From a bacterium (GTDB lineage: Bacteria > Electryoneota > Electryoneia > Electryoneales > Electryoneaceae), in NCBI GenBank assembly GCA_020444265.1, contig JAHLLH010000002.1, positions 297,033-361,032 of the forward strand: a stretch of 64,000 bases of DNA. The letters are read 5' to 3'. The notes under the pieces were generated by a model. The model had not been told where the DNA came from, searched no databases, and saw only the letters and a list, made by a program, of their open reading frames with translations. Position 1 is the stretch's first letter, and every line of letters begins with the position of its first letter. Below, piece by piece: positions 37,588 through 58,959 of this stretch. The position numbers and the translations under genes are program-made.

Positions 37588-40500
37588 ATGAAGAAAATCG
37601 TAGTGTTTTTCACCATGGCAGCCTTGCTGGTTGGTTTTGCTGCGGTGGCTTCTGCCGGGCAATTCAGTAAAACGCCCTTGGATCCTTTTAATTCGAAGCG
37701 CGGAAACGTGACCGAGCGGACCGGCCTGGGGGAGAATGCGGTCGATGTCGTTGGGGTCAACATTGACTCGGTCGGAGTCTATAATTTCACGGATTTTGTC
37801 AACGGCATCGTGTATTTGGACGGGCTGCTTTATATCGGAGCCGAGACGAACGGCTTGCAGATTCTTGACGCTTCCGATCCAACCTCTCTATCACTCGAGG
37901 GCTCCGAAAATACTTACGATGTTACCGGTGTAGCAGTATCAGGTGGTTACGCTTATGTAGGTGATGCTTCCGGTATATTCGCCGTCTACGATGTGAGTGA
38001 TCCGACAACTCCCACCGTACATGGAGCCGCGAGCACTGTTTCCGAACCTCTGCTGACAGTCACTGTTGACGGTGGCTATGCCTACTGTGGCAGCAGTAGC
38101 GGGACGCTTTACATCTTCGACATTAGTGATCCCTCCTCACCAACTCTTTCAGGTTCGCTCACCTTCGCCTCCGAGTATGCCTACAACGTTGTTGTTGAAG
38201 GCGATACAGCGTTTGTAGCCAATGGGAAGTTTGCGTTTGGAGGGGATATATCCGGGCTTCGGATTGTGGATGTCACCGACCGCACTACTCCGACCCTGAT
38301 CAACAGCATTGACTTCCCCTCGACCTCCATCGTGCAGGGTGTAGCGATTGACAATGATCTCGCTTACATCACCTGGGCGAGCACCACATCCGGTGGCGGT
38401 CTTGAAGTCTACGATGTTTCCGATGTGGACAATCCCACCTCATACGGAAGCTACGCATACGGCGATGAAATGCGTAGCATCGCCATTCAGGGCGACTATG
38501 CGGTCATCAGCGCCGGGTACAGCGGTGTGATGGTGCTGGATATCACCGATGCTGGGAACGACAATTTCAGCGAAACCGGCAGCTACATCGCCTGGGACTA
38601 CTGTGATCAGCTCGTTGTCAACGGCGGGGACTTCTTCAACAACGCATCGGCATCCACAATCGCCTTTGACGGTTCGGCGGCTGGCCTGGCAGCGAGTGTC
38701 ACCCCCAGCAACAGCCTTACCCTTGATGCGATTACCTCATCCGCCTTCCCGGCTGTTGACGTGGATGTCACCGTCGTTGATCAGGATCTGGCAGCCGTAA
38801 CCGGGCTTACTTCGTCCGAGTTCACCATCTCAGAAGATGCATCCGGCCAGACGATTACAAACGTGGCCGACAATGGCAGCGGCAGCTACACGATTTCTTA
38901 CACCACGTCGAACACAACCGAAGATGGTTCCTCGCGTTCGGTGACGGTGGACCTCGACAATGGTGGCCTGACCGATTCCGCAACAGACAGCTACACCGCG
39001 CCGACCGCGGCCGCTACGGAACTGACCATCGGCACCCCGACGGTACTGACAGGCGATACCGCTTGTGTGCCGGTCACGGTGACCTCCTTCAGTGATGTCA
39101 GCACCCTCGAGCTCTACATCAACTTCCATCCGAGCGTGGTCAGCTTCGACACCCTGACCAGCGTCCCCATGGATGAGCCAGTCTTCAACGCTGCAGCGGA
39201 TAGTGTTTTCCGTGTCACCTGGTCCTCGGTAACCCCGATCACCTTATCCGATGGCGACACCCTCTTCTGCATGTACTGGGTCAACGACGCTCTCGCGTCC
39301 GGCGACACCACCATCTTCGACTGGGATTCGGGCAGCTCTTTCCTCGCTGACTCGGATGCCAGTGTCTTCACGGGTGTCACTTACAATGATGGCTGGTTGG
39401 CCGGCCTCACCCTGATGAATATTTCGGGGAATATTGCCTACAACACCAACGGAAATGTTGTCGATGGAGTCACCGTTGACCTGACGGGTGATGCAACAGC
39501 ATCCACCACCACGGACGAGAACGGCGACTACAGCTTCAGCGACCTCGAGCCGGGTACCTACTATGTGACCCCCTCCTACGAGGTGGAAGGTCACACGAGT
39601 GTCAACGCGCTCGACGTCTTCCGTATCCAGCAGCATATCGCCACCGACCCCTCCTTTACCGATGGTTTCCAGTACGTCGCGTCGGATGTTGACGGCGGAA
39701 CCACAGTTTCCACGATTGACGCCTACAAGATTCAGCGTGTAATCGTGGTGTTGGACACCAACTTCACCCGTGGGGACTGGAACTTTATCCCCACCAACTA
39801 CGGCACCAACACTTCGAACTGGGATAGCGCCTGGGATGAGTGGGCGGTTGGTTTGGTAACAGACGATGTCACCGGTGTTAACTTCGATGGTGTCCGGATC
39901 GGTGATGTCAACAACACCTGGCCCAACAACTTCGTCGCCGCCAAGACGGGCAACGAAGAAGTGTCCGGCAACCTCTACCTGACCGATGCCACTGTCAACC
40001 CGGGTGAAGCAACCACGGTTGAGCTGCGTGCGAACGGTCTCGCTGAAGTCGGCGTGGTCGAGTTCCATATCGAGTACGACCCGGAGATGATCAGCCTGGA
40101 GGATATGGACCTGTCCGCTCTTCCGGGTGCGGTCAGCTCGGATGTTGATGGCGAGATTCACGTAGTCTGGGTCAACGTGCAGTCCGCGTTGCCCTGCGAT
40201 GACCGTACCCTCGCCACCTTCGAGTTCCAGGCGGCTGAGACCAGTGGAGCCAGCGAGATCACGTTGAACGATGTGGTCATGGGCAACAGCCAGGGGCACG
40301 AGCTGAACCCGGCCGTTGACAACGGTACCGTAACCGTCAGCGCCACCACCAGCCTCGAAGGCGACAACGCCCTCGTGACCGAGTGGGCACTGCGTCCGGC
40401 CTACCCGAACCCGTTCAACGCCTACACGACGATTTCCTTCGACGTGAAGGATGCGAGCAACGTTCGGATCCAGGTCTACAACGTACTCGGTGACCTGGTG

Positions 40501-40641
40501 ACCACGTTGGTCAACGACAACCTCGCCCAGGGCCGCTACAACGCCAGCCTCAACGCGAACACGTTGTCCTCGGGTACCTATTTCGTGGTGATGAAGAGCA
40601 GCGGCTTCAACAAGATCCAGAAGATTGTCCTGCTGAAGTAA
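37588..40641 (+). CDS. Large secreted T9SS cargo protein: LVIVD-type beta-propeller repeats, cohesin-like, CarbopepD_reg-like, dockerin-like, cohesin-like, T9SS C-terminal sorting domain
   Basis: Signal peptide MKKIVVFFTMAALLVGFAAVASA. Repeated ...YAYVGDASGIFAVYDVSDPTTPT... LVIVD-like repeats. Cohesin-like TVLTGDTACVPVTVTSFSDVSTLELYINFHP. GVTVDLTGDATASTTTDENGDYSF (CarbopepD_reg-like). Dockerin-like ASDVDGGTTVSTIDAYKIQRVIV. C-terminal EWALRPAYPNPFNAYTTISFDV...GTYFVVMK...KIVLLK = Por/T9SS CTD. Confidence 0.85.
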   Translation: MKKIVVFFTMAALLVGFAAVASAGQFSKTPLDPFNSKRGNVTERTGLGENAVDVVGVNIDSVGVYNFTDFVNGIVYLDGLLYIGAETNGLQILDASDPTSLSLEGSENTYDVTGVAVSGGYAYVGDASGIFAVYDVSDPTTPTVHGAASTVSEPLLTVTVDGGYAYCGSSSGTLYIFDISDPSSPTLSGSLTFASEYAYNVVVEGDTAFVANGKFAFGGDISGLRIVDVTDRTTPTLINSIDFPSTSIVQGVAIDNDLAYITWASTTSGGGLEVYDVSDVDNPTSYGSYAYGDEMRSIAIQGDYAVISAGYSGVMVLDITDAGNDNFSETGSYIAWDYCDQLVVNGGDFFNNASASTIAFDGSAAGLAASVTPSNSLTLDAITSSAFPAVDVDVTVVDQDLAAVTGLTSSEFTISEDASGQTITNVADNGSGSYTISYTTSNTTEDGSSRSVTVDLDNGGLTDSATDSYTAPTAAATELTIGTPTVLTGDTACVPVTVTSFSDVSTLELYINFHPSVVSFDTLTSVPMDEPVFNAAADSVFRVTWSSVTPITLSDGDTLFCMYWVNDALASGDTTIFDWDSGSSFLADSDASVFTGVTYNDGWLAGLTLMNISGNIAYNTNGNVVDGVTVDLTGDATASTTTDENGDYSFSDLEPGTYYVTPSYEVEGHTSVNALDVFRIQQHIATDPSFTDGFQYVASDVDGGTTVSTIDAYKIQRVIVVLDTNFTRGDWNFIPTNYGTNTSNWDSAWDEWAVGLVTDDVTGVNFDGVRIGDVNNTWPNNFVAAKTGNEEVSGNLYLTDATVNPGEATTVELRANGLAEVGVVEFHIEYDPEMISLEDMDLSALPGAVSSDVDGEIHVVWVNVQSALPCDDRTLATFEFQAAETSGASEITLNDVVMGNSQGHELNPAVDNGTVTVSATTSLEGDNALVTEWALRPAYPNPFNAYTTISFDVKDASNVRIQVYNVLGDLVTTLVNDNLAQGRYNASLNANTLSSGTYFVVMKSSGFNKIQKIVLLK

Positions 40642-40839
40642 TGTCCATGTGCTGTTGGCCCGCACAATCCCGTGCGGGCCAACAGCCTTTTGTTTTATCG
40701 TCGTAGATATGGACTCTGCACGGTTTGGGAAGATGGTTCAGAATCGTGTGGGTCTGGGGGGAACCTCGTGAAGAAGCTGTTCAAGGTAGATATGAATGTT
40801 GCAGATGGTATTGCTGATTCGATTGGGAGGAAGCCGGAG

Positions 40840-43800
40840 ATGAACAGGCTATCGATTGTGTTGCTAACCCTGGCGTTGGTTGTCTCGGCCTCCTTTGCCG
40901 AAAACCGGCACGGTAACAGCCAAGTGCAATCCTCCGGTCAGCAGATGAAACGGTCTGATGAGTCAGGTCGGAATGTTGGGCCCTCGACAGAAAGCCTCGA
41001 TAGCGTTGAGGATAATTTTAATTTTCTCTTGACGAACAGCTATGAGACAGCAGGTCGTCTTCACTTCAACAGCTTCGTAGGTGATTATCTCTATGGGACG
41101 ATCACGTCTACACCGGGATTTTTTATCTTTGACATCTCCGATCCTGATACCATCGCGCCTATTGGTTCCGCACATGATATCCCGTTGGGACCCAACGAGT
41201 ACTTAGACCAGCTTGATTCGGGCAATGGTCGTGTCTACGTGCTAACGTCCGAAGACAGGTTGCTCATCTTTGATGTATCCAATCCTGCTGATGTATCGCT
41301 GACTAGTTCCACCACCATCGGTGGAAATATTACCTACATGGTCGCGAATGGGAATATTGTCTATTTTTCCACGTGGGGTCTTTTCCCGGATTATGTCTCA
41401 CAACTGATTGTATATGACGCAACCAATGCAGCATCTCCTGTCCTTGCGGATCAGCTTGCCATGTATGACCGCGGCGGAATGCTGCTGCAAGGAAATTATC
41501 TCTACTACCTTCAGTCTAATGATGATCTTTGGATCTACGATATTTCCGATCCGTACAATGTCACGGAAGCTGGCAGTTATACGGGTTGGGATTCCTTCTC
41601 GGGCCTACGTCTTGCTGGTGACAGATTGTATTGGCCCGGCGCAGCCATTGAAGGTGATGACCCTAGAATTGGCGTGTTCGACCTCACTTCCCCTACTTCA
41701 CCAGTTTACCTCACCTCCATTCTGGGTGGCTATACCAGCACTCCAGACGTGACAGCGTATGGCGATCACATTGTGGTTACAAATTCAGTAGAAGACACAA
41801 CTTATATGCGGGTTGTTGATGTAAGCGACCTGGCAAACGATAACTATTCGCAGACGGGTTACTACGAGAGAGCTGTTGATGGTTACTCTCGCACCTATTT
41901 TAATGGAGACCGTGCATACGACTATGGATATGAGGGTGCCGGGTTTGTGCTGGAGGTTCTTAATTTTGCCGCTGCGCTGGGCGATTCATTATCGTTTACT
42001 GTTGCGAACATTGACACCAGCTCCTTTCCGCTTGTCTCGTTTGAACTGACTGTTACCGACAGTAGTGGTTCGGCCGTTACAGGTGTGAACACATCAGACG
42101 TTCAGCTATCCGAAGATGGAGTTGTTCTGTCCAATGTTGCGGTTTCCCAACTTGGTGATGGGGTCTATCAAGTTTTCTTTCAGCCTGACAACGATACGTA
42201 TGATGGTGCTGTTCGTCAGATCGATTTGTTTGTCGAGACAACCCATCCATTCGGTGGAACCAGCCTTAGCTATACCGCTCCGCCACCAGAGGTCTACCTG
42301 GCATTAGACAACACGGATGTATCCAGCTTCCCCGATCTGCACGTCACCGTTACAGTCACAGACGAGACTGAGGGTGGGGTCACCGGATTAACATCCGGCA
42401 GCTTTGTTGTCAAAGAAGATGAGATCGACCAGGCTACCGTTTTGGTGGATGACCTGGGGGATGGCAGCTACGACGTGTCATATTACACATCCAATGCGGC
42501 GTTTGATGAGACGGTACGTCAGGTTCAGCTTGTTGTAAATCACAACACCGTCGCGGACACCATCGACACCCAGTACACTGCGCCTGGTCCCGAACTGCAT
42601 GTCGCGATCAACCATGTGGATGGGTCCACCTTCCCGACCGTCACCAACTACCTCAAGGTGAACGATGAGTTGGGGCAGCATGTGCCCGGCCTGATTGCCG
42701 CCAATGTCGATCTCGAAGAGGATGGGGTGGCGCACAGTCTTGAGAGTGTGAACGAGACGAACACGGCAGGCCGTGCGGCAACCAGTCTGATGCTGAACTT
42801 CCGTTCTTCGATGACACCGGAAGCGATCGAGCAGATGCGCGTCGGTGCTCGCACCTACATACGCAATTTCGCGCCAGGCGATACCGGTCTGGTCGGTACC
42901 TACGCGGGTGCGCTGGGCAATGTCAGCAACCTGACGTCCGACACCACCGCCCTGATGTCCATCGTCAACTCGACCCACAATGGCTTGACGGTGGGTAGCT
43001 ACTTGATTGATGACATTCAATTCGCAGGTGCCGCCGTCAACTTCACCTCTGCGGACAAAGCAGTGATCATCGTCGCCGACAGCGCCGATGATGGGCGAAG
43101 TGTGACATCGCTGTCTGACCTCTACGCCAACCTTCGTGCCGCGAATGTCCGTGTCTTTCCCATCGGGATCGGAAGCATGGTGGATGCCTCGTTTATGCAG
43201 GCTCTCGCCGACACCTCCGGTGGACGGTACTATCAGGTGAGTCATCCCGACTCGTTACCCGGCATCTTCAAGCAGATTTCGACCATCATGCAGAGTAACT
43301 ACGAGGTCGCCTACCAGACTCAGAACGACGTCAGCGATGGCAGCGAACGTGCTGTGCAGCTAACCGTCACGCAAGATGACCTTTCCGACAGCGCGGACAG
43401 CGGCTACACCGCGCCGAATCCGCCGACTCTCGCCATTGGCGAGGTCAGCGTGGTTCCCGGCGATAGCGTGAAAGTGCCCGTGACTGTCAGCTCGTTTACC
43501 AATGTCAGCGTGATCGAATTCTACATCCACTACGATCCAACGGCCCTCTCCTTTGGACGTGTGAGCAGCGCTGCGATGGATGCGCCGGTCCACAACGCGC
43601 CCGACGAAACAGAGATGTTCATCTTGACCTGGTCCTCGATCAGCCCGATTACCCTGAACGACGGCGATACCCTGATGCACCTGCATTTCGCGACGGATAA
43701 CCTGGGCTTCGAGGAGGTGACCCCGGTGATCTGGGCGGAGGCGGACAGCAGCTATCTCGCCAACTACAATGGACGTGTCTTCGCAGGAACCGCGCTTGAG

Positions 43801-45060
43801 GACGGTTCGGTCACTGGGTTGTCGATTATGACCGTTTCCGGCGCGGTCAGCTACTATTCGAACGACATCGCCCTCGATGGGGTGACAGTCGATCTCGCGG
43901 GGGATACGACCCTGACGACGACTACCGACAGCGACGGTAACTACAGCTTCCTGGAAATCCGGCCTGGTTCCTACACCGTGACCCCCAGCTTGAACGATGA
44001 GAGCGGGCATCCAGGGGTGAGTACGCTGGATGCCTACCGTATCCAGCAGCATGTTGCCAGCATCGACCCCTTCACGACGGGCTATGACCTGTTTGCATCG
44101 GAAGTGAACGGCGCTGATGGGGTGAACACGGTCGATGCCTACCAGATCCAGCGTGTGATTGTCGGACTGGACGAAGCGTTCGCCGCAGGCGATTGGGCTT
44201 TTGTCAGCAGCCATTACCCGATGAACAGCGACAACTGGGCGGATGCCGACCAGCTCAACAGCTTCACCCTGACCGATACCGACAGCCTTGATCAGGATTT
44301 CTACGGCCACCGAGTCGGGGATGCCAACGGTACCTGGCCCTCCTACTTCCCGGGGCCGAGTAAAAACGAAGACTTCAGAGGTATTGTCAGCCTCGCAGAT
44401 GCTGCCGTCCAGCCGGATGGAGTGGTCACCGTCGAGCTTACGGCCTCAGAAATGCCGCCGATCGGGTCGGTGGAAGCGCACATCGCGTTCGATCCTAATG
44501 TGATCGAGTTGGTGGAGATGAACTTCGACGCGCTCGAGGGCGCGGTCGCCTTTGCAACCGACAGCACGATCAGCGTCAGCTGGTTCAACATCAACGAGCC
44601 GTTGCATGCCACCGATCTCGTGTTGGGCAGCTTCCAGTTCGAAGCGGTGGGTCCGCTCAACAGCGAAAGCGCGCTTGACTTGTACCGTGTCGAATTCGGT
44701 ACCGAGCTGGGTGAGAAGCTGTTCACGGAGGTCAGCGACGGTTCGGTGTCCATCACCAACGATCTCGGTGTGGACTACCAGGGCGCGGAGCTGGTGACCG
44801 ATTGGGCCCTGCGTCCCGCCTACCCGAACCCCTTTAACGCCTATACGACCCTCTCCTTCGACATGAAGGAGACCAGTCGTGTCCAGATCCGTGTCTACAA
44901 CATCCTCGGCGATCTGGTGGCGACGCTGGTGGAAGGATCGCTGCCGAAGGGTCGGTATGCTTCGAGTGTCAATGCGCAAGCGTGGTCGTCCGGCACCTAT
45001 TTCGTTGTGATGAAGACCAGCGGCTTTAACAAAGTCCAGAAGATCGTGCTTCTGAAGTAG
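40840..45060 (+). CDS. Large secreted T9SS cargo protein (paralog): LVIVD-like repeats, Ig-like repeats, vWA-like domain, cohesin-like, CarbopepD_reg-like, dockerin-like, cohesin-like, T9SS CTD
   Basis: Start at MNRLSIVLLTLALVVSASFA (signal peptide) with AGGAAG RBS. vWA-like segment (...AVIIVADSADDGRS..., TSGGRYYQV...SLPGIFKQI). Cohesin-like GDSVKVPVTVSSFTNVSVIEFYIHYDP. Dockerin-like SEVNGADGVNTVDAYQIQRVIV. CTD DWALRPAYPNPFNAYTTLSFDM...KIVLLK. Confidence 0.85.
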   Translation: MNRLSIVLLTLALVVSASFAENRHGNSQVQSSGQQMKRSDESGRNVGPSTESLDSVEDNFNFLLTNSYETAGRLHFNSFVGDYLYGTITSTPGFFIFDISDPDTIAPIGSAHDIPLGPNEYLDQLDSGNGRVYVLTSEDRLLIFDVSNPADVSLTSSTTIGGNITYMVANGNIVYFSTWGLFPDYVSQLIVYDATNAASPVLADQLAMYDRGGMLLQGNYLYYLQSNDDLWIYDISDPYNVTEAGSYTGWDSFSGLRLAGDRLYWPGAAIEGDDPRIGVFDLTSPTSPVYLTSILGGYTSTPDVTAYGDHIVVTNSVEDTTYMRVVDVSDLANDNYSQTGYYERAVDGYSRTYFNGDRAYDYGYEGAGFVLEVLNFAAALGDSLSFTVANIDTSSFPLVSFELTVTDSSGSAVTGVNTSDVQLSEDGVVLSNVAVSQLGDGVYQVFFQPDNDTYDGAVRQIDLFVETTHPFGGTSLSYTAPPPEVYLALDNTDVSSFPDLHVTVTVTDETEGGVTGLTSGSFVVKEDEIDQATVLVDDLGDGSYDVSYYTSNAAFDETVRQVQLVVNHNTVADTIDTQYTAPGPELHVAINHVDGSTFPTVTNYLKVNDELGQHVPGLIAANVDLEEDGVAHSLESVNETNTAGRAATSLMLNFRSSMTPEAIEQMRVGARTYIRNFAPGDTGLVGTYAGALGNVSNLTSDTTALMSIVNSTHNGLTVGSYLIDDIQFAGAAVNFTSADKAVIIVADSADDGRSVTSLSDLYANLRAANVRVFPIGIGSMVDASFMQALADTSGGRYYQVSHPDSLPGIFKQISTIMQSNYEVAYQTQNDVSDGSERAVQLTVTQDDLSDSADSGYTAPNPPTLAIGEVSVVPGDSVKVPVTVSSFTNVSVIEFYIHYDPTALSFGRVSSAAMDAPVHNAPDETEMFILTWSSISPITLNDGDTLMHLHFATDNLGFEEVTPVIWAEADSSYLANYNGRVFAGTALEDGSVTGLSIMTVSGAVSYYSNDIALDGVTVDLAGDTTLTTTTDSDGNYSFLEIRPGSYTVTPSLNDESGHPGVSTLDAYRIQQHVASIDPFTTGYDLFASEVNGADGVNTVDAYQIQRVIVGLDEAFAAGDWAFVSSHYPMNSDNWADADQLNSFTLTDTDSLDQDFYGHRVGDANGTWPSYFPGPSKNEDFRGIVSLADAAVQPDGVVTVELTASEMPPIGSVEAHIAFDPNVIELVEMNFDALEGAVAFATDSTISVSWFNINEPLHATDLVLGSFQFEAVGPLNSESALDLYRVEFGTELGEKLFTEVSDGSVSITNDLGVDYQGAELVTDWALRPAYPNPFNAYTTLSFDMKETSRVQIRVYNILGDLVATLVEGSLPKGRYASSVNAQAWSSGTYFVVMKTSGFNKVQKIVLLK

Positions 45061-45251
45061 GCGAGAGATTAAAGGAGAGAGCGTTCCCTTCACATGTGAA
45101 ATCCCCGATGTGATTGAAACGTAGGGCAATAGATACGCCCTAAAGAGTTAGGTGTTTCTAAGATTTTCAAAAAAAATCGTGCGCCCATGACTTCGATATG
45201 CGAAGGGGGGAATGCACGCATGGGAAAGTACTTGGGACAAGTGAGGTGGTC

Positions 45252-48200: not shown

Positions 48201-49148
48201 TCCGCACTGGTCAACACGATGGATGCGTACAAGATCCAGCGCGTCGTGGTGGGGCTGGATGAGGGCTTTGATGCGGGCGAGTGGGCCTTCATCAGCAGCA
48301 GTTACGGGATGACGACCGAGAACTGGGCCGATGCGGAGCTGTTACGCAGCTTCAGCCTGATGGGTGTCGACAGCACCGACCAGAACTTCTATGGTGTCCG
48401 TCTCGGTGATGCCAACAACACCTGGCCCAGCCTCTTTATCGAGAACGATGAGGAAGAAGAGATCATCGGTAGCATGACCATCGCCGAAGCAGTTGTTAGC
48501 CCGGGTGGGACCGCTACAGTCGAACTGCGTGCTGAAGGGCTGATGGATCTTGGTGTGATCGAATACCACATCGAGTTTGACCCCACCGTGGTGTCGTTGC
48601 AGAGCTATGATCTGGCAGCGCTTGGTGGAGCCATTGCTTCAACGACGGACAGCACGATCAATGTCAGCTGGTTCGATATCCAGACCCCGCTCAACTGCGG
48701 CGACCGTATCCTCGGTAGCTTCACCTTCCAGGCGGTCAACGAAGTCAACGTGCAGAGCGACCTCGAGCTGACCAGCGTGGTGCTTGGTGATGCCAACGGT
48801 ATCGAGCTGTTCACCGAGCAGAACGATGGTTCGATCATGGTCAGCAATACGATGGGGGTCAACTACCAGGGTGCCGAACTGGTGACCGACTGGGCGCTGC
48901 GTCCCAGCTACCCGAACCCGTTCAACGCGTACACGACCCTCTCCTTCGATGTGAAGGATGCCGCCGAGGTGCAGATCCATGTTTACAACGTCCTCGGTGA
49001 CCTGGTCACCACCCTCGTGCAGGGCAACCTGCCGAAGGGCCGTTACACGAAGAGTGTCAACGCCCAGAACTGGTCGTCCGGCACCTACTTCGTCGTGATG
49101 AAGAGCCAGGCCTTCAACAAGGTGCAGAAGATTGTTCTGTTGAAGTAA
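45252..49148 (+). CDS. Large secreted T9SS cargo protein (paralog): LVIVD-like repeats, 4 tandem Ig-like repeats, cohesin-like, CarbopepD_reg-like, dockerin-like, cohesin-like, T9SS CTD
   Basis: Start MNKLKIGVLLAAFTLFAVTMTA with GAGGTGG RBS. YAFVACDVDGLLIYDLSNTASPT-type LVIVD repeats. Four ~98 aa repeats (...FSLSEDDASQTL...SYxxVYTTSN...DGSxRxV...). C-terminal half near-identical to next gene. CTD DWALRPSYPNPFNAYTTLSFDV...KIVLLK. Confidence 0.85.
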   Translation: MNKLKIGVLLAAFTLFAVTMTADVANAAGGQNSHVSGTSLTKRSHTGSGSTVGLDDIESNISLLGSVDLPSQPYAVDVQGTYAFVACDVDGLLIYDLSNTASPTLVDQVTDMSGSYDVVVRGDYAYVADYEGLFIVDVSDPTNASLAGSLLSSFPYYGVDASGDYAYVTISQGALWVIDVSNPSSPSMVGNLTLPEANPGAISYQNDYVYICDGASGLVTVDVSTPSSPSAADTLSLAGTPLDVSAFGDHLIVAISGSYIAIDIATPSEPTHLFSTSVSPLGAVSLIENTAVIMGTSASNNYVAIFTQSNWTYSSEDGYYNPDSNEPFVDGELVGTTYICAISQTTLYMLDASAALGGYQTSYTVTLNNIDTSAFPQLTCSVTVEDGSSNPVTGLTASNFSLTEDDASQSLASFTEQGSGSYDIVYTTANSATDGSSHAVEVNVTNGFASGSDTESYNAPLVYDVTIDAIDASAFPVVTSTVSVLIGGSPYAGLTAADFALSEDNSDQTLTSATAVSDSYELVYTTSNAAEDGSNRAVAVSMTNGTGSDESSYTAPEAYGVTVDALDASGFPAISATVTVLGFDETPVSGLTLSDFSLSEDDASQTLASATEQGDNSYILVYTTSGTDEDGTSRTVDVNVDDGSGSGSASGSYTAPETYTVSIDNLDESAFPQITGTISVLHFNGDPVAGLSMSDFSLSEDEASQTLTSVTEEEDNSYTVVYSTSNPAEDGSTRTVEVAVSHDDRSDSGDGSYQAPQVPGLVISDEIILIGEVVDVPVTVANFHNISVLELYIDYDTSKLTFSDLVQDNINGAVFNDNEGTVIFSWFSTTPLDLMDDDTLFTLQFETDGLVNGETTDLTWGEASYMADFDAIVFQEDAFIDGSVHGISTAIISGSLSYFTSEIALQGGTVNLTGDTTLAATSDENGSFLFEDILPGSYMVSAEMSDEGHPGVNTLDAYRIQVSLDEINPFETGYQSYAADVDQSALVNTMDAYKIQRVVVGLDEGFDAGEWAFISSSYGMTTENWADAELLRSFSLMGVDSTDQNFYGVRLGDANNTWPSLFIENDEEEEIIGSMTIAEAVVSPGGTATVELRAEGLMDLGVIEYHIEFDPTVVSLQSYDLAALGGAIASTTDSTINVSWFDIQTPLNCGDRILGSFTFQAVNEVNVQSDLELTSVVLGDANGIELFTEQNDGSIMVSNTMGVNYQGAELVTDWALRPSYPNPFNAYTTLSFDVKDAAEVQIHVYNVLGDLVTTLVQGNLPKGRYTKSVNAQNWSSGTYFVVMKSQAFNKVQKIVLLK
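46338..47520. repeat. Intragenic tandem repeats (~295 bp x4) encoding Ig-like modules in 45252..49148
   Basis: Four consecutive protein repeats ...(A/S)FP.(I/V)T.T(V/I)(S/T)V.....P(V/Y).GL(T/S)..DF.LSED.ASQTL.S.TE....SY..VY(T/S)TSN...DG(S/T).R.V.V.... Confidence 0.7.
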
Positions 49149-49323
49149 ACCAAGTCTGTTCCCCGATTGGGTGCCGTTGGCCAGAGACGGTCAGCGGCAC
49201 CCAAAACGGGGTTGCAGCTACCTGTTCTACACGCTGTTCCGATTGGTAAACGTTTGAAAGCCTGCTCAATCCTGAAACGGGGGGATGCAGGAGATGAGAA
49301 GACTGGCAAGGAAAGACCTGAAG

Positions 49324-52300
49324 ATGAAAAAATTCGCGTACGTATGGTTGATCGCAAGCATGGTTGTTTCTTCGGCTGCAGCGAAGACCACTCCTGGTGT
49401 TTCCACACAGTTTCCGGAACGTACCACAGATGTGGTTACATCCCTTCCGCTAATTGGGTCGAACGTGGCAATTAATAGCCCCGAATACGCAGAAGTGACC
49501 TTCGATAGTGGGAAGCTGTATGTCTCAGGAACGTCTCCCGGACTCCAGATTCACGATGTCTCTTCTCTACCAAGCATAACCCCGCTTGGAATCTACTCCG
49601 GTGATCAGACGTACGGTCTTGGTGTTTCCGGCAATACTGCGCTGGTGGGTGGTACAGGAGATTTCAGCGGTTATATACCTTTTTACGTGCTGGATGTAAG
49701 TAACCCATCATCGCCTGCACAAGTGGGTTCAGGAACGGTGACTGGTTTATCAGATGGTCCGTCCATTGTCAGTGTGCAACTCTTCGGTACAACTGCCGCT
49801 ATTCTTTCAAAGGACCTGCTCCATGGCAGTCAACTCGACTTCTGGGATATATCTACTCCGTCCAGCCCCACCCGGATCAGTTCTGGTACGCCCCCAGCAG
49901 CCGTTACATATGAATCAGAATTGTACCTTTCCGGCACAAAGCTCTATCAGTTGGGGAATAGTGGCGCGGGGGTTGTGGACGTAAGTGATCCCGCCAATCC
50001 AACACACCTGAGCTCGTTCTCTGTAAATACCAGTCCCCAGGCATCACTTACTGCAATTGCAGGCAAAGATGAGATGGTCTTTATTGGCGACGCGAATGGT
50101 AGTGTAAAGTTCTTCGACACATCCGTCTCACCCGCCGTTGAAACCGGATCAATCCAGCTTGGCCAGGGAGTGAAGGATTTGTTGATTGAAGGTGATTATC
50201 TCCTGGCGCTCACAAGTGAGCAGCTTACTGTGTACCACATCGGCCGAGTGGCTGAGGGAGATGCGTACCTCACAGGTTCCCAGGGCGACTTTACTTCTGC
50301 TCACCATGTTCTTGGTGATGGGACTACGGTCTATATCCTTGAGGATGATCACATTTTCGCCTATGATGCCACCCAGGCGTACGTGGAGCCCTCCTTTCCG
50401 GTGATCACCTACACGGAAACGGTGACAAGCGGTTTTCCTGAGATTCAGAGTTCCTTGAGTGTCACAGAGGTATTTGACAGCAACACGCCTTACACGGGCT
50501 TGACCTCGGACAACTTTACTCTTACCGAGAACCTCTCCAGCCAGACAATCTCCGTCCAGGAAGGCACTCCGGGCTCCTACGTTCTGACCTATACCACTGA
50601 AGACTTGAGTGGACAAGGTCAGAGTCGTGATCTTCATCTCGTCCTCACGTACGAGGGTGAAGCGACCGATTCGGTGGATGTGACCTATGTCGTGCCTTCG
50701 ATCGAACTAACGGTTGGCACCGTTGATGTCAGCGAATTCCCGTCCATCAGCTTCCCTGCAACCGTGGTGAACGAGAACGGTGTGAAGCGGACCGGGTTGA
50801 CGACTGCCCATTTCGAGTTGGTGGAAAATGCGGTGACCCAGACCGTGTCGTCCGTGACGGAGCAGGCAGACAGCACCTACATCGTTGGCTATACACCCAC
50901 AGACCTCAGCCATGTTGGGAATCTCCGTACGCTCAACGTAACCATCGACTACAATGGGCTTGAGGCATTTGCATCCGTGGATTATACCGAGCCCACTATT
51001 GCGCCGGCCCTTTCCGTCGAGCTGGTTGACGGGTTGCTCAACTTCCCCACGCTGACGGTGATGATGCAGGTGACAGACGAAATCGAGATACCTGTAGCAG
51101 GTCTTGCCGCTTCTGATATTACGGTGGAAGAAAATGGAATCGTTCCGGAGCAAGTGTCTTTCGGCAACGTAGGTGACGGTTATTACATCATCGGTTATAC
51201 GTCACCGAACGGAATTCCGGACGGCACCACCCGTTCTGTCGAGTATTCCGTAACAAGTGGTGACCTGTCCGACGTGGCAAGCACCACCTATGATGCTCCG
51301 CTGCCCCCGAGCCTGACCATTGGCAATGGCGAAGCTGTGCTGCCAAACGTGGCGGATGTTCCGATTACAGTGGAGAGCTTCGGCAATGTCTCGGTCATGG
51401 AATTCTACATCAACTACGATCCGTCCAAGGTGACCTTTGAGAACATCACAAGCGACGTTGCCGAAGGAATCGTTTTCAATGCATCCGACGGCAACCTCAT
51501 CCTCTCCTGGTTCTCGACCAACCCGATGTACCTGGACGATGGCGACACGTTGCTGACGATGCATTTCGCCACGGATGGCTTCGAGGCCGCTGGCTATGAG
51601 ACCTCCCCGGTAACCTGGGCGGAGGGCACCTATATGGCCAACTACGATGCCGATCTCTTCGAAGGGATCACCTATGAGGATGGTTCGGTGATCGGCCTTT
51701 CGCATGCTGACATTTCAGGTGTCTTGTCCTACTTCACCAGCTCGATCCCACTCGCAGGCGCCGAAGTTGGCCTCGTCGGTGACACCACGTTGTCAGCAAC
51801 CAGCGACGAGAACGGTGCGTATCTCTTCGAAGCAATACTGCCCGGGAGCTACAGTGTGGGAGTCCTGATGAGCGATGAGGGCCATCCCGGGGTCAACACT
51901 CTCGATGCGTATCGTATCCAGATATCCCTGGATGACATCAATCCTTTCGAATCCGGGTACCAGTACTTCGCCGCCGATGTCGATCAGACTCACTTGGTCA
52001 ACACGATGGATGCCTACAAGATCCAGCGTGTGGTGGTCGGGCTCGACGAGGGCTTTGATGCGCCCGATTGGGCATTCATCAGCAGCAGTTTTGCCATGAC
52101 GACCGAGAACTGGGCTGATGCGGAGCTGTACCGCAGCTTCGACCTGATGGGTATCGACAGCACTGGTCTGGATTTCTACGGGGTCCGTCGGGGTGATGCA
52201 AACAACTCCTGGCCAAACCTCTTCCTCGAAACAACCACTGAAGAGGAGATCACCGGCAGCCTGACCATCGCCGATGCGGTGGTGGGACCGGGTGGCAGGA

Positions 52301-52935
52301 CTACTGTCGAACTGGAAGCACTTGGCCTGGGCGAAATTGGTGCGCTGGAATGGCACCTCGAGTTCAATCCGGATGTGGTCACTCTGTTGGACTACGACCT
52401 GCCGGGGATCGGTGGCGAGGTGGTCACCACGACCGACAGCACCATCAGTGTCAGCTGGTTCAACGTCGCCTCGGCGATGAACTGCGATGCCCGTATCCTC
52501 GGCTATCTCACCTTTGAGGCTGTCGAACAGGTCAATGTCGAAAGCGACCTGCACCTATACAGAGTCGTACTCGGCGATGACTCGGGCGAAGAGCTGTGGA
52601 CGGATGTCCAGGATGGCACGATTACCGTTGCCAACATGTCGGACCTGAATTACCAGGGCGCCGAGTTGGTAAGCGAGTGGCAGCTGCGTCCAAGCTACCC
52701 GAACCCGTTCAACGCCTACACCACGCTCTCCTTTGATGTGAAGGATGCGAGCGAGGTGCAGATCCATATCTACAACGTGCTCGGCGACCTGGTCGAGACC
52801 CTCGTGCAGGGCAACCTGCCGAAGGGCCGTTACACGAAGAGTGTTAACGCTCAGAACTGGTCGTCCGGCACCTACTTCGTCGTCATGAAGACCCAATCCT
52901 TCAACAAGGTCCAGAAAATCGTCCTGTTGAAGTAA
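49324..52935 (+). CDS. Large secreted T9SS cargo protein (paralog): beta-propeller-like N-region, Ig-like repeats, cohesin-like, CarbopepD_reg-like, dockerin-like, cohesin-like, T9SS CTD
   Basis: Start MKKFAYVWLIASMVVSSAAA (alternative upstream ATG at 49285). C-terminal ~520 aa ~85-90% identical to 45252..49148. CTD EWQLRPSYPNPFNAYTTLSFDV...KIVLLK. Confidence 0.8.
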   Translation: MKKFAYVWLIASMVVSSAAAKTTPGVSTQFPERTTDVVTSLPLIGSNVAINSPEYAEVTFDSGKLYVSGTSPGLQIHDVSSLPSITPLGIYSGDQTYGLGVSGNTALVGGTGDFSGYIPFYVLDVSNPSSPAQVGSGTVTGLSDGPSIVSVQLFGTTAAILSKDLLHGSQLDFWDISTPSSPTRISSGTPPAAVTYESELYLSGTKLYQLGNSGAGVVDVSDPANPTHLSSFSVNTSPQASLTAIAGKDEMVFIGDANGSVKFFDTSVSPAVETGSIQLGQGVKDLLIEGDYLLALTSEQLTVYHIGRVAEGDAYLTGSQGDFTSAHHVLGDGTTVYILEDDHIFAYDATQAYVEPSFPVITYTETVTSGFPEIQSSLSVTEVFDSNTPYTGLTSDNFTLTENLSSQTISVQEGTPGSYVLTYTTEDLSGQGQSRDLHLVLTYEGEATDSVDVTYVVPSIELTVGTVDVSEFPSISFPATVVNENGVKRTGLTTAHFELVENAVTQTVSSVTEQADSTYIVGYTPTDLSHVGNLRTLNVTIDYNGLEAFASVDYTEPTIAPALSVELVDGLLNFPTLTVMMQVTDEIEIPVAGLAASDITVEENGIVPEQVSFGNVGDGYYIIGYTSPNGIPDGTTRSVEYSVTSGDLSDVASTTYDAPLPPSLTIGNGEAVLPNVADVPITVESFGNVSVMEFYINYDPSKVTFENITSDVAEGIVFNASDGNLILSWFSTNPMYLDDGDTLLTMHFATDGFEAAGYETSPVTWAEGTYMANYDADLFEGITYEDGSVIGLSHADISGVLSYFTSSIPLAGAEVGLVGDTTLSATSDENGAYLFEAILPGSYSVGVLMSDEGHPGVNTLDAYRIQISLDDINPFESGYQYFAADVDQTHLVNTMDAYKIQRVVVGLDEGFDAPDWAFISSSFAMTTENWADAELYRSFDLMGIDSTGLDFYGVRRGDANNSWPNLFLETTTEEEITGSLTIADAVVGPGGRTTVELEALGLGEIGALEWHLEFNPDVVTLLDYDLPGIGGEVVTTTDSTISVSWFNVASAMNCDARILGYLTFEAVEQVNVESDLHLYRVVLGDDSGEELWTDVQDGTITVANMSDLNYQGAELVSEWQLRPSYPNPFNAYTTLSFDVKDASEVQIHIYNVLGDLVETLVQGNLPKGRYTKSVNAQNWSSGTYFVVMKTQSFNKVQKIVLLK

Positions 52936-53073
52936 GGAAGAAGAGTAGCACATGATCTCAGCTTTGATACATTTTGCATCGATGCGGTTCGTTCGGGGAA
53001 GCGATGTTTCCCCGAACGGTCAGCTCGATCAAACAGCTATCGTCCCGCAGGGACAGGAGAACTTGAGGGGGCT

Positions 53074-56000: not shown

Positions 56001-56103
56001 GTTCGTTCTGGATGGCTCCAGCTTATCCAGCGGCGCCTATTTCGTGCGGGCCACCGTACCCGGAAAGATGAACCAGGTCCGTAAAGTGGTCCTGATGAAA
56101 TAG
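53074..56103 (+). CDS. Secreted T9SS cargo protein: N-terminal cohesin-like domain followed by ~8 tandem Fn3-like ~96-aa repeats and T9SS CTD
   Basis: Signal peptide MGLKKSKLAALLLLVALPLAA. Cohesin-like VNSGETVEVPLVVQDFNDVAVFEMYIDY. Repeats with consensus ...F.L.SP..GA....T..L.W.A..DPD.D..P.YD..LDT.ADLST.......TYYWTV.A.D.N....W.SDTLSF.T. CTD GIQSAYPNPFNPTMTVEISL...AYFVRAT...KVVLMK. Confidence 0.85.
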   Translation: MGLKKSKLAALLLLVALPLAAKSQTLVQIPDQVVNSGETVEVPLVVQDFNDVAVFEMYIDYSSSVLEYVSMTGPTPSPVVNDVGGRTIISWLSTNLLSLEDGETLMTLTYQVNGAPGESTVMDFTSSSYLADENSLVIPTTFEDGQIEVFNPQPPAAFNLVSPANGALLTTLTPELVWNATTDPNPDDVPTYNIYLDTQADLSTMQLVGEGVSEASFSLDALIDDETYYWTVFATDVNTDGTWASDTLSFSTAVPDPPSAFSLITPAEDDTLNSTEVFFQWEASVDPDPGENVVYDVYIDTDADMAEAVPLQSLITDTEFTSTIEDGLTYYWTVHAIDASTLETISSDTVMFVVNEPDQPLDFAYVSPSDGAELNEPEVTVLWRTAEDSDLADLVIYRIEWGTDPEFAEYFETTTTDTTYTITDLANPANRSKRLTDSSGRGNGTSEPDDLPDNSTVFWRVVAIDRFGLETVGQENQAWSFTVELPNSPEAFTLLTPEDETILESLDTWLTWEATIDPDDVERLQHYDVWLDTQADLSTAQLIADSLGDIEHFIAELEDDQNYYWTVRATDDNTAGRWASDTLSFSTAYPEAPLAFTLISPEEGAEISATSATLTWNATTDPDPDQIPTYDVWLDTFPDLSTGQTVASGLTGTEFTVEDLLDDHTYYWAVHATDSNTPGTYSDTLSFVTNQPELPSEFSLLTPLEDDTVWAGLDTTLTWEASVDPDLDQVPFYDVWLDTLADLSTAELVADSIEPAEFLIADLLDDHTYYWTVRATDINSPGRWASDTLFFHTYMPEQPTAFSLAAPADSTVISFDPPFDVELFWHPSVDPDPEQTVTYDITCVVSSNFAEDSTFVFAGIADTSYVINIPDSLHIETWPDTINALWHVDAIAAGDTVRSTETWLIIYAPPLDVAEGPDGLPLVYGIQSAYPNPFNPTMTVEISLPQASPLRVEAFDVLGRRVALLHQGRAEAGVRQFVLDGSSLSSGAYFVRATVPGKMNQVRKVVLMK
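53520..55800. repeat. Intragenic tandem repeats (~288 bp, ~8 copies) encoding Fn3-like modules in 53074..56103
   Basis: Protein repeats share YYWTV.ATD.N....WASDTLSFST and LDTQADLST motifs (GACCTACTACTGGACCGT / TATTACTGGACGGTTCG etc.). Divergent at DNA level but clearly periodic. Confidence 0.7.
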
Positions 56104-56128
56104 CATCCACCTTTTTGTTCTCACGCGT

Positions 56129-56172
56129 TGGGCAGCACCCCTCAGGTTTTTGAAGGGGTGCTGTTTTGTTCC
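56129..56172 (+). terminator. Rho-independent terminator downstream of 53074..56103
   Basis: GCACCCCT-CAGGTTTTTGA-AGGGGTGC stem followed by TGTTTTGTT. Confidence 0.6.
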
Positions 56173-56243
56173 GCCCGGTCCGAAAAGTCCCTACATTGCT
56201 GGCGAGTGGAAGAGAGTCATTTTGTCGGGAGGGGGGAAGCAGG

Positions 56244-56543
56244 ATGAGTGAGGCGCGTAAACAGTGGATGCAGCTGCCAGACATCGTCTTTCGCGATGAT
56301 TTTCAGGACGATGCTCTCCTCTTCGACCCGGAAACAGACAAGGCGTTTCGATTGAACCGTACAGGAGTTCTCGTATGGAACGCACTCGAACAGGGGGCGA
56401 CAGTCGAGGAAGTGATCGAGCGAGTCCGTGCGAAAACAAGCGACCACCCTGCCTCGCTTGAGGAGGATGTGCGTGCCTTTTTCCGGTTGCTACAGGAGAA
56501 GTCTCTGATCGGACGAGTCAGCGGGCTGAACGACCGAGGGTGA
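56244..56543 (+). CDS. PqqD-family protein (RiPP recognition element-like peptide chaperone)
   Basis: ~99 aa: LPDIVFRDDFQDDALLFDPETDKAFRLNRTGVLVWNALEQGATVEEVIERVRAKTSDHPASLEEDVRAFFRLLQEKSLI matches the PqqD/RRE pattern (D..LL.D..TG....LN.TG..IW..L..G.T..EI...L...Y......E...DV..FL..L...GLI). Start at MSEARKQW with GGGAGGGGGGAAG RBS. Confidence 0.75.
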   Translation: MSEARKQWMQLPDIVFRDDFQDDALLFDPETDKAFRLNRTGVLVWNALEQGATVEEVIERVRAKTSDHPASLEEDVRAFFRLLQEKSLIGRVSGLNDRG

Positions 56544-56547
56544 GTGA

Positions 56548-58947: not shown

Positions 58948-58959
58948 GGAGAAGAAACG

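What the first reader, a model, noticed from the sequence alone, without database searches (positions are those of the whole stretch)
37588..56103. Tandem array of five paralogous giant T9SS cargo proteins carrying BOTH cohesin-like and dockerin-like modules plus LVIVD beta-propellers
Five consecutive same-strand genes (3.0-4.2 kb each) encode secreted proteins that end in the conserved T9SS C-terminal sorting domain (...PNPFNAYTTLSFDV...GTYFVVMK...KIVLLK).
Four of them share the architecture N-terminal LVIVD-type beta-propeller repeats, Ig-like repeats, cohesin-like domain, CarbopepD_reg-like domain, dockerin-like Ca-binding repeat (e.g. ASDVDGGTTVSTIDAYKIQRVIV), a second cohesin-like domain, then CTD.
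Cohesin and dockerin in the same polypeptide, replicated across paralogs, would allow homo- and hetero-oligomeric self-assembly into a cell-surface lattice (T9SS cargo is normally anchored to the outer membrane). This would be a non-cellulolytic, cellulosome-like scaffold.
As far as I know this exact combination with a T9SS sorting domain has not been described.
Basis: partly seen in the sequence, partly recalled or inferred. Interest (0 to 1): 0.7.

Follow-up and report, generated by a model that had tools for sequence, protein, structure and literature searches.

The report
T9SS surface proteins with cohesin-dockerin cassette
Four neighbouring genes of an uncultured bacterium encode large secreted surface proteins that share a conserved tail of two cohesins, a dockerin nested in a beta-sandwich and a type IX secretion signal, followed by a cohesin-only partner gene; together they probably form a non-enzymatic, cellulosome-style docking system on a Gram-negative cell surface.

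Summary
Five + strand genes (37588-56103) all end in a type A T9SS CTD. G1-G4 share the architecture LVIVD propeller, Ig-like repeats, cohesin A, transthyretin/CarboxypepD_reg-like sandwich, dockerin, cohesin B, CTD. G5 differs: an N-terminal cohesin, about seven FN3-like repeats and a CTD, with no dockerin.

What the tools added:
- Both cohesins are real (Pfam above cutoff for CohA and for G1 CohB; all 50 top Foldseek hits are cohesins).
- The dockerin appears to be nested inside the beta-sandwich, a rigid unit resembling a type II X-Doc dyad.
- The cassette is a portable family, found in about 45 clusters (50% identity) behind many different heads (BACON, LVIVD, subtilase, M23, cadherin).
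- Cassette genes often sit beside dockerin-less cohesin genes that carry a CTD where complete, or occur in tandem.

Best reading: a non-cellulolytic, T9SS-delivered cohesin-dockerin assembly acting in trans. Binding itself is inferred, not shown. Cohesin scaffoldins with a T9SS CTD were already inferred in Cloacimonadota, so I rate this a new variant of a known kind.

The parts
37588..40641 (+). G1: signal peptide, LVIVD propeller (about aa 60-375 of the ORF from 37573), one Ig-like repeat (aa 383-477), cassette, CTD
39013..39408 (+). G1 cohesin A
   Evidence: Pfam Cohesin 28.0 bits, above the 24.1 cutoff
39409..39918 (+). G1 transthyretin/CarboxypepD_reg-like sandwich (39409-39573 and 39754-39918) with nested dockerin (39574-39753)
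   Evidence: CarboxypepD_reg 38.3 bits; Dockerin_1 21.2 bits, E 3.4e-4; splice test raises SdrD_B from 34.0 to 43.6 bits
39961..40371 (+). G1 cohesin B
   Evidence: Pfam Cohesin 43.7 bits, profile positions 4-139 of 139
40372..40638 (+). G1 type A T9SS CTD
   Evidence: PF18962 53.2 bits; TIGR04183 40.1 bits
40651..40686 (+). Terminator-like hairpin after G1 (15-bp stem, then a T-tract); it overlaps the GTG start of the long G2 ORF
40840..45060 (+). G2 (likely start MNRLSIV...): LVIVD propeller, Ig-like repeats with a VWA domain (42808-43275) inserted in the third repeat, cassette, CTD
43420..43821 (+). G2 cohesin A
   Evidence: Pfam Cohesin 47.2 bits for the whole protein, best stretch aa 919-965
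43822..44334 (+). G2 beta-sandwich (43822-43986 and 44170-44334) with nested dockerin (43987-44169)
44374..44790 (+). G2 cohesin B
   Evidence: Pfam Cohesin 20.5 bits, the only hit; local CohB HMM 115 bits
44791..45057 (+). G2 T9SS CTD
   Evidence: PF18962 51.2 bits
45252..49148 (+). G3 (likely start MNKLKIG...; probably NCBI MCB2198628.1, judged from its length of 1298 aa and an identical cassette): LVIVD propeller, four Ig-like repeats (46347-47519), cassette, CTD
47523..47912 (+). G3 cohesin A
   Evidence: Pfam Cohesin 31.1 bits; PDB profile hit to 1g1k, E 4e-5
47913..48422 (+). G3 beta-sandwich (47913-48077 and 48258-48422) with nested dockerin (48078-48257)
48462..48878 (+). G3 cohesin B
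   Evidence: Pfam Cohesin 21.5 bits, profile positions 3-138 of 139; Foldseek hits to model 1 are all cohesins
48879..49145 (+). G3 T9SS CTD
   Evidence: PF18962 46.6 bits
49324..52935 (+). G4 (likely start MKKFAYVW...): LVIVD propeller, three Ig-like repeats (50407-51300), cassette, CTD
51304..51699 (+). G4 cohesin A
   Evidence: Pfam Cohesin 26.2 bits
51700..52209 (+). G4 beta-sandwich (51700-51864 and 52045-52209) with nested dockerin (51865-52044)
52249..52665 (+). G4 cohesin B
   Evidence: Pfam Cohesin 15.5 bits, full-length alignment and the only hit; local CohB HMM 119 bits
52666..52932 (+). G4 T9SS CTD
   Evidence: PF18962 50.3 bits
53074..56103 (+). G5, the dockerin-less partner: signal peptide, N-terminal cohesin (53152-53520), about seven FN3-like repeats (about 53521-55788), T9SS CTD (55861-56100)
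   Evidence: Cohesin 34.8 bits, profile 3-139 of 139; fn3 29.9 bits; Ig_Rha78A_N 52.3 bits; PF18962 31.0 bits. The repeat count is read by eye from the recurring ...YYWTV... motif. Orthologs lie next to cassette genes in L002-L004 and near them in L005

Best explanation
G1-G4 are T9SS-exported surface proteins made of two parts. The variable distal part is an LVIVD beta-propeller on a stalk of Ig-like repeats, plus a VWA domain in G2. The conserved part next to the anchor is a cassette: cohesin A, a transthyretin-like beta-sandwich that holds a nested dockerin rigidly (a topological variant of the type II X-dockerin dyad), a 13-14-residue linker, cohesin B, and a type A CTD. G5 is a dockerin-less partner with one cohesin at the tip of an FN3-like stalk and its own CTD.

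Proposed mechanism: after Sec and T9SS export and CTD-dependent processing or anchoring, the dockerin of one molecule binds a cohesin of another molecule in trans. That cohesin may be CohA or CohB of a paralog, or the cohesin of G5. The result would be homo- and hetero-oligomeric, non-enzymatic assemblies on the cell surface that display the propeller heads, for adhesion or as a surface-layer-like coat.

Shown here: the domain identities, the nested-dockerin fold (as a prediction), conservation of the cassette across many lineages, and its genomic coupling to cohesin-only genes. Inferred: Ca-dependent binding, trans rather than cis binding, which cohesin is the partner, outer-membrane anchoring, and what the heads do.
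For: Domains: (Pfam and NCBIfam); the PDB profile search matches CohA to the 1g1k cohesin (E 4e-5), the dockerin stretch to the ScaB dockerin 4uyq_B (E 0.05), and the beta-sandwich stretch to chains 4u3s_B/4wi0_B (E 1.4e-3), which describe as X-Doc chains; all 50 best Foldseek matches to model 1 are cohesins (TM up to 0.71 on the target, about 2 A).

Family: about 45 representatives at 50% clustering match the whole module in one stretch (E 1e-43 to 1e-238), behind heads such as BACON, LVIVD, Peptidase_S8, M23, MAM, FG-GAP, cadherin and beta-helix; 39 of 44 have a T9SS CTD.

Trans partner: a dockerin-less cohesin gene (with a CTD where the ORF is complete) directly adjoins a cassette gene in the window (G5), L001 (Ignavibacteriaceae), L002-L004, L013, L016, L021 and L026. 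L016's partner is just a signal peptide, one cohesin and a CTD. Tandem cassette genes recur in L005, L013, L019, L020 and L023.
Against: No binding data exist. In the window's clade, Pfam Dockerin_1 is sub-threshold for G1 and silent for G2-G4. Loop 1 is degenerate (E-G-H instead of D-x-N/D-x-D), and position 5 of loop 2 is G, A, S or T. Each protein has its own CTD, so docking is not needed for surface retention. Doc and CohB are always joined in the same chain through a flexible linker, which would equally suit binding in cis. The array holds 9 cohesins but only 4 dockerins, so other partners may exist. The whole-module AF2 model was poor (pLDDT 55, pTM 0.43) and says nothing about inter-domain contacts. 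The nesting topology is inferred from aligned lengths, because the model coordinates could not be inspected.
Confidence: 0.5

Rival explanations
1. Intramolecular clasp. The nested dockerin binds CohB (or CohA) of the same polypeptide, locking the cassette into a compact, mechanically stable pedestal next to the anchor. There is no higher-order assembly, and the neighbouring cohesin-only proteins have other partners.
For: Doc and CohB are invariably joined in the same chain in a fixed order, with a 13-14-residue disordered linker that could allow fold-back. The cassette is inherited as one unit across about 45 clusters. Each protein has its own CTD, so docking in trans is not needed for retention.
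Against: Proteins that are only a signal peptide, a cohesin and a CTD, and G5-like proteins, sit next to cassette genes in several lineages and have no dockerin of their own to bind. As far as I know, cohesins and dockerins on the same cellulosomal scaffoldin do not normally bind each other. The whole-module model gave no confident inter-domain packing (pTM 0.43), but that model rested on only four sequences.
Confidence: 0.2
2. The modules serve as structural spacers or ligand-binding domains only. The cohesin-like and dockerin-like modules are kept as stable stalk elements or bind non-protein ligands (glycans, LPS), with no cohesin-dockerin interaction. The array would then simply be duplicated T9SS adhesins.
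For: Loop 1 is degenerate and Pfam scores are sub-threshold in the window's clade. [quoted passage not shown] 2009, known to me only as cited in PMC8542988 and PMC6487960); that most have no demonstrated binding partner is my own recollection. T9SS cargo commonly carries beta-sandwich spacer domains (my own knowledge of the field).
Against: Dockerin features are strongly conserved across the family: D12 is invariant in both segments, loop 2 is canonical, and the two helices are near-identical. The dockerin always co-occurs with at least one cohesin, and cohesin-only genes recur as neighbours. That pattern is hard to explain without an interaction.
Confidence: 0.15
3. Recruitment platform for other cargo. 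The cohesins of G1-G5 mainly capture dockerin-bearing enzymes encoded elsewhere in the genome, giving a true cellulosome-like enzyme display. The dockerins of G1-G4 attach these scaffolds to yet another anchoring cohesin.
For: The array has more cohesins (9) than dockerins (4). Family members with enzyme heads exist (Peptidase_S8, M23). The Cloacimonadota precedent pairs dockerin-bearing enzymes with a scaffoldin that has a CTD (PMC8542988).
Against: No dockerin-bearing enzyme, CAZyme or CBM is present in the 64-kb window. In the family, the enzymes carry the whole cassette rather than a lone dockerin. The rest of the genome could not be examined.
Confidence: 0.15

Closest known systems
Clostridial cellulosome adaptor and anchoring scaffoldins with a type II X-dockerin dyad (e.g. 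C. thermocellum CipA X-DocII binding SdbA/ScaC cohesins; A. cellulolyticus ScaA/ScaB)
   Different: The host is a Gram-negative member of the FCB group and uses a T9SS CTD instead of SLH or sortase anchoring. There are no CAZymes or CBMs. The dockerin appears to be inserted inside the beta-sandwich rather than following it. Loop 1 is atypical. Every component carries its own anchor signal. The heads are LVIVD propellers, not enzymes.
Ca. Stygibacter (Cloacimonadota) cellulosome-like system (Williams et al. 2021, PMC8542988)
   Same: An in-silico inference of cohesin-dockerin assembly in an FCB-group bacterium, with a cohesin-bearing scaffoldin that ends in a T9SS-type CTD for cell-surface attachment.
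   Different: That system has one 3755-aa scaffoldin with tandem cohesins and CBMs, plus separate enzymes with C-terminal dockerins (GH18, GH57, S8/S53, C25). Here each protein has cohesin, nested dockerin, cohesin and CTD in a single cassette, with non-enzymatic heads and a cohesin-only partner.
Chlorochromatium epibiont Cag_2037/Cag_2038 pair (bioRxiv 10.64898/2026.03.19.712371)
   Same: A non-cellulosomal system in the FCB group, with adjacent genes providing an N-terminal cohesin and a dockerin on long Ig-repeat stalks. Binding was inferred from AlphaFold 3, and the proposed role is in cell-surface or cell-cell contact.
   Different: The cohesin protein there is an RTX/T1SS substrate. The dockerin is C-terminal, not nested. 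There is no T9SS CTD cassette and no tandem paralog array.
P0001/P0002 family (metagenomic; found)
   Same: The same logic: cohesin, a canonical dockerin, cohesin and a T9SS CTD with the YPNPFNAYTT motif, at the C-terminus of a secreted protein.
   Different: The dockerin is canonical (GDANLDG...DYNRDGD) and free-standing, with no CarboxypepD_reg hit. The heads are cadherin-like. Sequence similarity to G3 is only 27-28% over 36-40% of the query.

Membership tests
Dockerin (Pfam PF00404 Dockerin_1) | Score at or above the Pfam gathering cutoff (22.9 bits) | tested here: not met
   G1 scores 21.2 bits (E 3.4e-4) as an isolated segment and 15.1 bits in the whole protein. G2-G4 give no hit. Relatives: 17-21 bits in 8 of 10, best E 4e-7 among 44, and 31.7 bits in L001.
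Dockerin (Pfam PF00404 Dockerin_1) | Tandem duplication of a segment of about 22 residues (loop plus helix) | tested here: met
   VNxLDAYRIQ and VNTxDAYKIQR lie about 35 residues apart in G1-G4. The family consensus is GVSVADxIKIRRHLA and VSVADxIKIRRYLA.
Dockerin (Pfam PF00404 Dockerin_1) | EF-hand-like Ca ligands at loop positions 1, 3, 5, 9 and 12 in both loops | tested here: inconclusive
   Loop 2 in the window: D/E1, D/N3, N/S9 and D12 are kept, while position 5 is G, A, S or T. In the family, loop 2 is canonical. Loop 1 in the window reads E3-G4-H5...N/S9-D12. In the family, position 1 of loop 1 is R/K and D sits at positions 4 and 5, which is atypical.
Dockerin (Pfam PF00404 Dockerin_1) | Three-helix dockerin fold | tested here: met
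Dockerin (Pfam PF00404 Dockerin_1) | Ca-dependent binding to a cognate cohesin | not testable with these tools
   This needs ITC or native PAGE, or multimer structure prediction.
Cohesin (Pfam PF00963) | Score at or above the gathering cutoff (24.1 bits) | tested here: met
   CohA: G1 28.0, G2 47.2 (whole protein), G3 31.1, G4 26.2. G5: 34.8. CohB: G1 43.7. CohB of G2, G3 and G4 is below the cutoff (20.5, 21.5, 15.5) but is the only hit; the alignments are full-length for G3 and G4 and partial for G2.
Cohesin (Pfam PF00963) | Cohesin-type jelly-roll fold rather than a generic Ig fold | tested here: met
   All 50 best Foldseek PDB matches to model 1 are cohesins (type I, II and III; E down to 3.9e-6; TM on the target 0.6-0.7; about 2 A). 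The 3l8q cohesin dyad aligns across 495 columns. Caveat: model 1 has mean pLDDT 55, with the cohesin segments at 65-84.
T9SS type A cargo (TIGR04183 / PF18962 CTD) | C-terminal sorting domain above cutoff at the extreme C-terminus | tested here: met
   All five: PF18962 31.0-53.2 bits (cutoff 27); TIGR04183 29.1-40.1 bits (cutoff 23).
T9SS type A cargo (TIGR04183 / PF18962 CTD) | T9SS core machinery (PorK/L/M/N, Sov, PorU/V) encoded in the genome | not testable with these tools
   Only the 64-kb window is available and it holds no core gene. Two further CTD-bearing ORFs lie at 59856-63560(-) and 63602-64000(-).
Cellulosome | Dockerin-bearing carbohydrate-active enzymes and a scaffoldin with a CBM | tested here: not met
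   No GH, PL, CE or CBM family was detected in G1-G5 or elsewhere in the window. It may work like a cellulosome anchoring system, but it is not a cellulosome.
Type II X-dockerin dyad | A beta-sandwich X module immediately N-terminal to the dockerin and packed against it | tested here: inconclusive
LVIVD repeat beta-propeller (PF08309) | Repeat score above the cutoff (20.2 bits) | tested here: met
   G1 98 bits, G2 24.2, G3 120.3, G4 25.0. The propeller fold itself was not modelled.

The most novel reading that the evidence does not exclude
The invariant unit, a beta-sandwich-nested dockerin followed by a cohesin and a T9SS CTD, is a self-complementary polymerisation module. After T9SS export it would link cargo head-to-tail, and to cohesin-only anchor proteins, forming a cohesin-dockerin-based surface lattice. 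That would be a general and so far unrecognised way in which uncultured FCB-group bacteria organise many kinds of T9SS cargo (adhesins, BACON proteins, subtilases) on the outer membrane, and it would add a new dockerin topology.
Probability: 0.3. Interest if true: 0.75.

Novelty: new variant of a known kind. Interest (0 to 1): 0.55.

Why it matters
Cohesin-dockerin pairing has been studied mostly as the glue of Gram-positive cellulosomes. This locus belongs to a widespread family, annotated in NCBI only as 'T9SS type A sorting domain-containing protein'. In that family a cohesin, a nested dockerin and a second cohesin are fused directly to the T9SS sorting signal and attached to many different functional heads.

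If the modules do bind each other, three things follow. T9SS cargo in uncultured FCB-group bacteria would be organised into defined multi-protein surface assemblies. The recurring cohesin-only surface proteins would have an explanation. And the nested, rigidly held dockerin with compact cohesin partners from Gram-negative bacteria could be useful for surface-display engineering.

The hypothesis can be tested directly with a handful of small recombinant domains.

Tried and rejected
1. The word-indexed homolog search, run with the G3 module and with a 21-sequence alignment, returned almost nothing relevant. The exhaustive HMMER search was needed.
2. The exact-sequence context look-up failed for G3 and for P0012.
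With A2 it found a single locus, L001.
4. The first AF2 model, of the whole module with four sequences, was poor (pLDDT 55). It was used only for the cohesin fold check.
5. The afdb50 fold library was unavailable, so the taxonomic spread of the nested unit in AFDB was not obtained.
6. A single-sequence PDB search with G3 CohB found no cohesin. The Pfam profile and the fold search did.
7. The dockerin-deletion splice test extended the SdrD_B alignment but not the CarboxypepD_reg alignment, so sequence support for nesting is only partial.
8. Peer et al. 2009 (PMC3035643) is not in the held library.
9. A cellulosome reading was considered and rejected because there are no CAZymes or CBMs. A single-operon reading was also rejected, because G1, G3, G4 and G5 are each followed by a clear GC-rich hairpin.
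10. No tRNA genes and no sign of a mobile element were found. GC content across the array (0.52-0.58) resembles the rest of the window.

Full report
**Observation**

Five + strand ORFs fill 37573-56103.

All five proteins start with signal-peptide-like sequences (read from the sequence; no predictor was run). All five end in a type A T9SS C-terminal domain: PF18962 scores 31-53 bits against a cutoff of 27, and TIGR04183 scores 29-40 bits against 23.

BLASTP shows that G1-G4 share a C-terminal module of about 590 aa at 45-54% identity. Their N-terminal regions are 25-31% identical. G5 shares only a cohesin (32-37% identity to cohesin A) and the CTD.

A 15-bp terminator-like hairpin lies at 40651-40686, right after the G1 stop, and overlaps the GTG of the long G2 ORF. 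The likely starts are therefore G2 at 40840, G3 at 45252 and G4 at 49324. P0012 (NCBI MCB2198628.1) is 1298 aa, which is the length of G3 read from Met19, and it is identical to G3 across the aligned dockerin/X region. Clear GC-rich hairpins also follow G3, G4 and G5, so the genes look like separate transcription units.

**Domain anatomy of G1-G4**

- LVIVD repeats pass the Pfam cutoff of 20.2 bits in all four (98, 24.2, 120 and 25.0 bits).
- A local profile finds an Ig-like repeat of about 95 aa once in G1, four times in G3 and three times in G4. G2 has two complete copies plus a third that is split by an inserted VWA domain. That split explains the partial TIGR03436 hits.
- Cohesin A passes the Cohesin cutoff of 24.1 bits in all four (28.0, 47.2, 31.1, 26.2). 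As a profile it matches the C. cellulolyticum cohesin 1g1k at E 4e-5.
- Cohesin B passes in G1 (43.7 bits, full-length). It is below the cutoff in G2-G4 (20.5, 21.5, 15.5 bits) but is the only hit there, with full-length alignments in G3 and G4.
- All 50 best Foldseek PDB matches to the whole-module model are cohesins of types I-III. The best has E 3.9e-6; TM-scores on the target reach 0.71, at about 2 A over 124-128 columns. The caveat is that this model has an overall pLDDT of only 55, with 65-84 in the cohesin segments.

**The dockerin**

By Pfam alone the evidence in the window is weak. G1 scores 21.2 bits (E 3.4e-4) against a cutoff of 22.9, and G2-G4 give nothing. Three other lines establish it.

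1. *Sequence pattern.* The stretch contains a duplicated loop-helix segment. Across 46 relatives the second loop has the canonical ligand pattern: D1 in 44, N or D at position 3 in 42, S, D or N at position 5 in 39, S, T or N at position 9 in 44, and D12 in all 46. D12 of the first loop is also invariant, and the two helices are near-identical (KIRR[HY]LA).
2. *Relatives pass the cutoff.* Dockerin_1 scores 31.7 bits in an Ignavibacteriaceae homolog and reaches E 4e-7 among 44 family members. In 8 of 10 relatives it gives full-length alignments of 17-21 bits at the same position.

The first loop is atypical throughout the family. In the window's clade it reads E-G-H, and position 5 of loop 2 is G, A, S or T. 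Full two-site Ca binding is therefore uncertain for G1-G4.

**A nested dockerin**

Deleting the dockerin in silico lets the SdrD_B alignment run about 25 residues across the junction. The score rises from 34.0 to 43.6 bits in G1, 27.2 to 36.2 in G2 and 17.6 to 22.5 in G3. The CarboxypepD_reg alignment does not extend.

**The cassette is a family**

An exhaustive HMMER search returned about 45 representatives (50% clustering) that match the entire 454-position module in one stretch, at E 1e-43 to 1e-238. Among 44 of them, 39 have Por_Secre_tail and 38 have Cohesin. Their heads include BACON/BACON_2 (11), HYDIN-like Ig (8), LVIVD (6), Peptidase_S8 (3), beta-helix/NosD (3), cadherin-like (2) and MAM (2), with single cases of FG-GAP, CARDB and PPC, plus an M23 peptidase.

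I annotated 26 further metagenomic loci with local HMMs. The invariant core is sandwich(dockerin), cohesin B and CTD. Cohesin A is optional.

A second family, P0001/P0002, uses a canonical free-standing dockerin in the same cohesin-dockerin-cohesin-CTD arrangement.

**Genomic coupling**

- In a related organism (L002-L004), the G2 ortholog is followed directly by a 571-aa G5 ortholog at 45-52% identity.
- In L005, three cassette genes lie in tandem near a G5-like gene.
- In the Ignavibacteriaceae MAG (L001), a cassette protein that lacks cohesin A is followed by a protein with three cohesins, FN3 repeats and a CTD.
- L013, L016, L021 and L026 also have an adjacent dockerin-less cohesin gene. 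L016's is just a signal peptide, one cohesin and a CTD.
- Two adjacent cassette genes also occur in L013, L019, L020 and L023 (convergent in L019).

A surface-targeted cohesin with nothing else attached is most simply a receptor for a dockerin offered in trans. This is the main reason I rank trans assembly (0.5) above a cis clasp (0.2), a spacer-only role (0.15) and a platform for other dockerin-bearing cargo (0.15).

**Comparison with what is known**

This is not a cellulosome: no CAZyme or CBM is present. It would work like the anchoring tier of a cellulosome, meaning an X-Doc unit binding a surface cohesin.

Cohesin-dockerin systems in FCB-group bacteria have been inferred before. In Ca. 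Stygibacter (Cloacimonadota), a scaffoldin of tandem cohesins with a T9SS-type CTD was paired with dockerin-bearing enzymes (PMC8542988). In a Chlorobiota epibiont, an adjacent cohesin/dockerin gene pair was described (bioRxiv 10.64898/2026.03.19.712371). Dockerins and cohesins in Bacteroidetes were noted in the rumen (PMC6487960).

None of the papers found describes the nested-dockerin cassette fused to a CTD. NCBI names the G3 protein only as a 'T9SS type A sorting domain-containing protein'. I therefore rate it a new variant of a known kind.

**Source organism**

The contig belongs to an NCBI MAG labelled only 'bacterium'. PEP carboxylase from the related genome L002 is closest to other unclassified bacteria (62-63%), then to a Calditrichota MAG (61%), then to Bacteroidota (56-60%). 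That suggests an unclassified FCB-group lineage. The placement rests on a single gene and is tentative.

**Verdict**

The mechanism, trans cohesin-dockerin assembly of T9SS cargo, is plausible and can be tested directly, but binding has not been shown. Interest: 0.55.

Noticed in passing
window 359-35552 (+): A large hybrid PKS/NRPS gene cluster. It contains a KS-AT-ACP-aminotransferase loading module (359-5095), three NRPS genes (5092-10926; 10955-18340 with a methyltransferase; 20053-27561), a ParA-like ATPase, two DUF697 proteins, a beta-lactamase-family protein, an ABC transporter, an SPFH protein, a periplasmic binding protein, a type II thioesterase and a PPTase. It may encode a lipopeptide pathway.
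   Followed up: partly
window 42808-43275 within G2 (aa 713-868): The VWA domain is inserted inside the third Ig-like repeat. The repeat HMM matches positions 1-54 at aa 645-701 and positions 49-95 at aa 861-915. This is a second nested-domain arrangement in the same protein family, and it explains the partial TIGR03436 (acidobact_VWFA) hits on all the Ig-like repeats.
   Followed up: partly
window 59856-63560 (-) and 63602-64000 (-): Two further T9SS CTD-bearing ORFs lie on the opposite strand. One is a 1234-aa protein with HYDIN/ASH/DUF1573-type Ig repeats. The other is a CTD fragment at the window edge. Neither has a cohesin or a dockerin.
   Followed up: partly
window 56166-59340 (+): Directly downstream of G5 lie a PqqD-like protein (56166-56543), two ORFs with no Pfam hit (56548-57420, 57413-58048), a 4Fe-4S ferredoxin-type protein (58159-58947) and an HMA domain protein (58960-59340). 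The PqqD-like protein with unknown neighbours could mark a small RiPP-type locus.
   Followed up: no
window 40651-40686, about 49166-49205, about 52989-53019, about 56125-56165: Clear GC-rich hairpins follow the stop codons of G1, G3, G4 and G5; the signal after G2 is less clear. The G1 hairpin overlaps the GTG start of the longest G2 ORF, which suggests that ORF is over-extended upstream.
   Followed up: yes
dockerin loop 1 of G1-G4 (e.g. window 48087-48098 in G3): An E-G-H motif, with the His invariant in G1-G4 and present in several close relatives (e.g. P0014, P0015), replaces the usual acidic Ca ligands of the first dockerin loop. Whether the site binds Ca, another metal or nothing is unknown.
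   Followed up: partly
L006-L020 (metagenomes Ga0272443 and Ga0272444): At least a dozen distinct cassette-bearing contigs come from this one pair of related metagenomes. Some organisms may therefore encode many cassette proteins with different heads.
   Followed up: no
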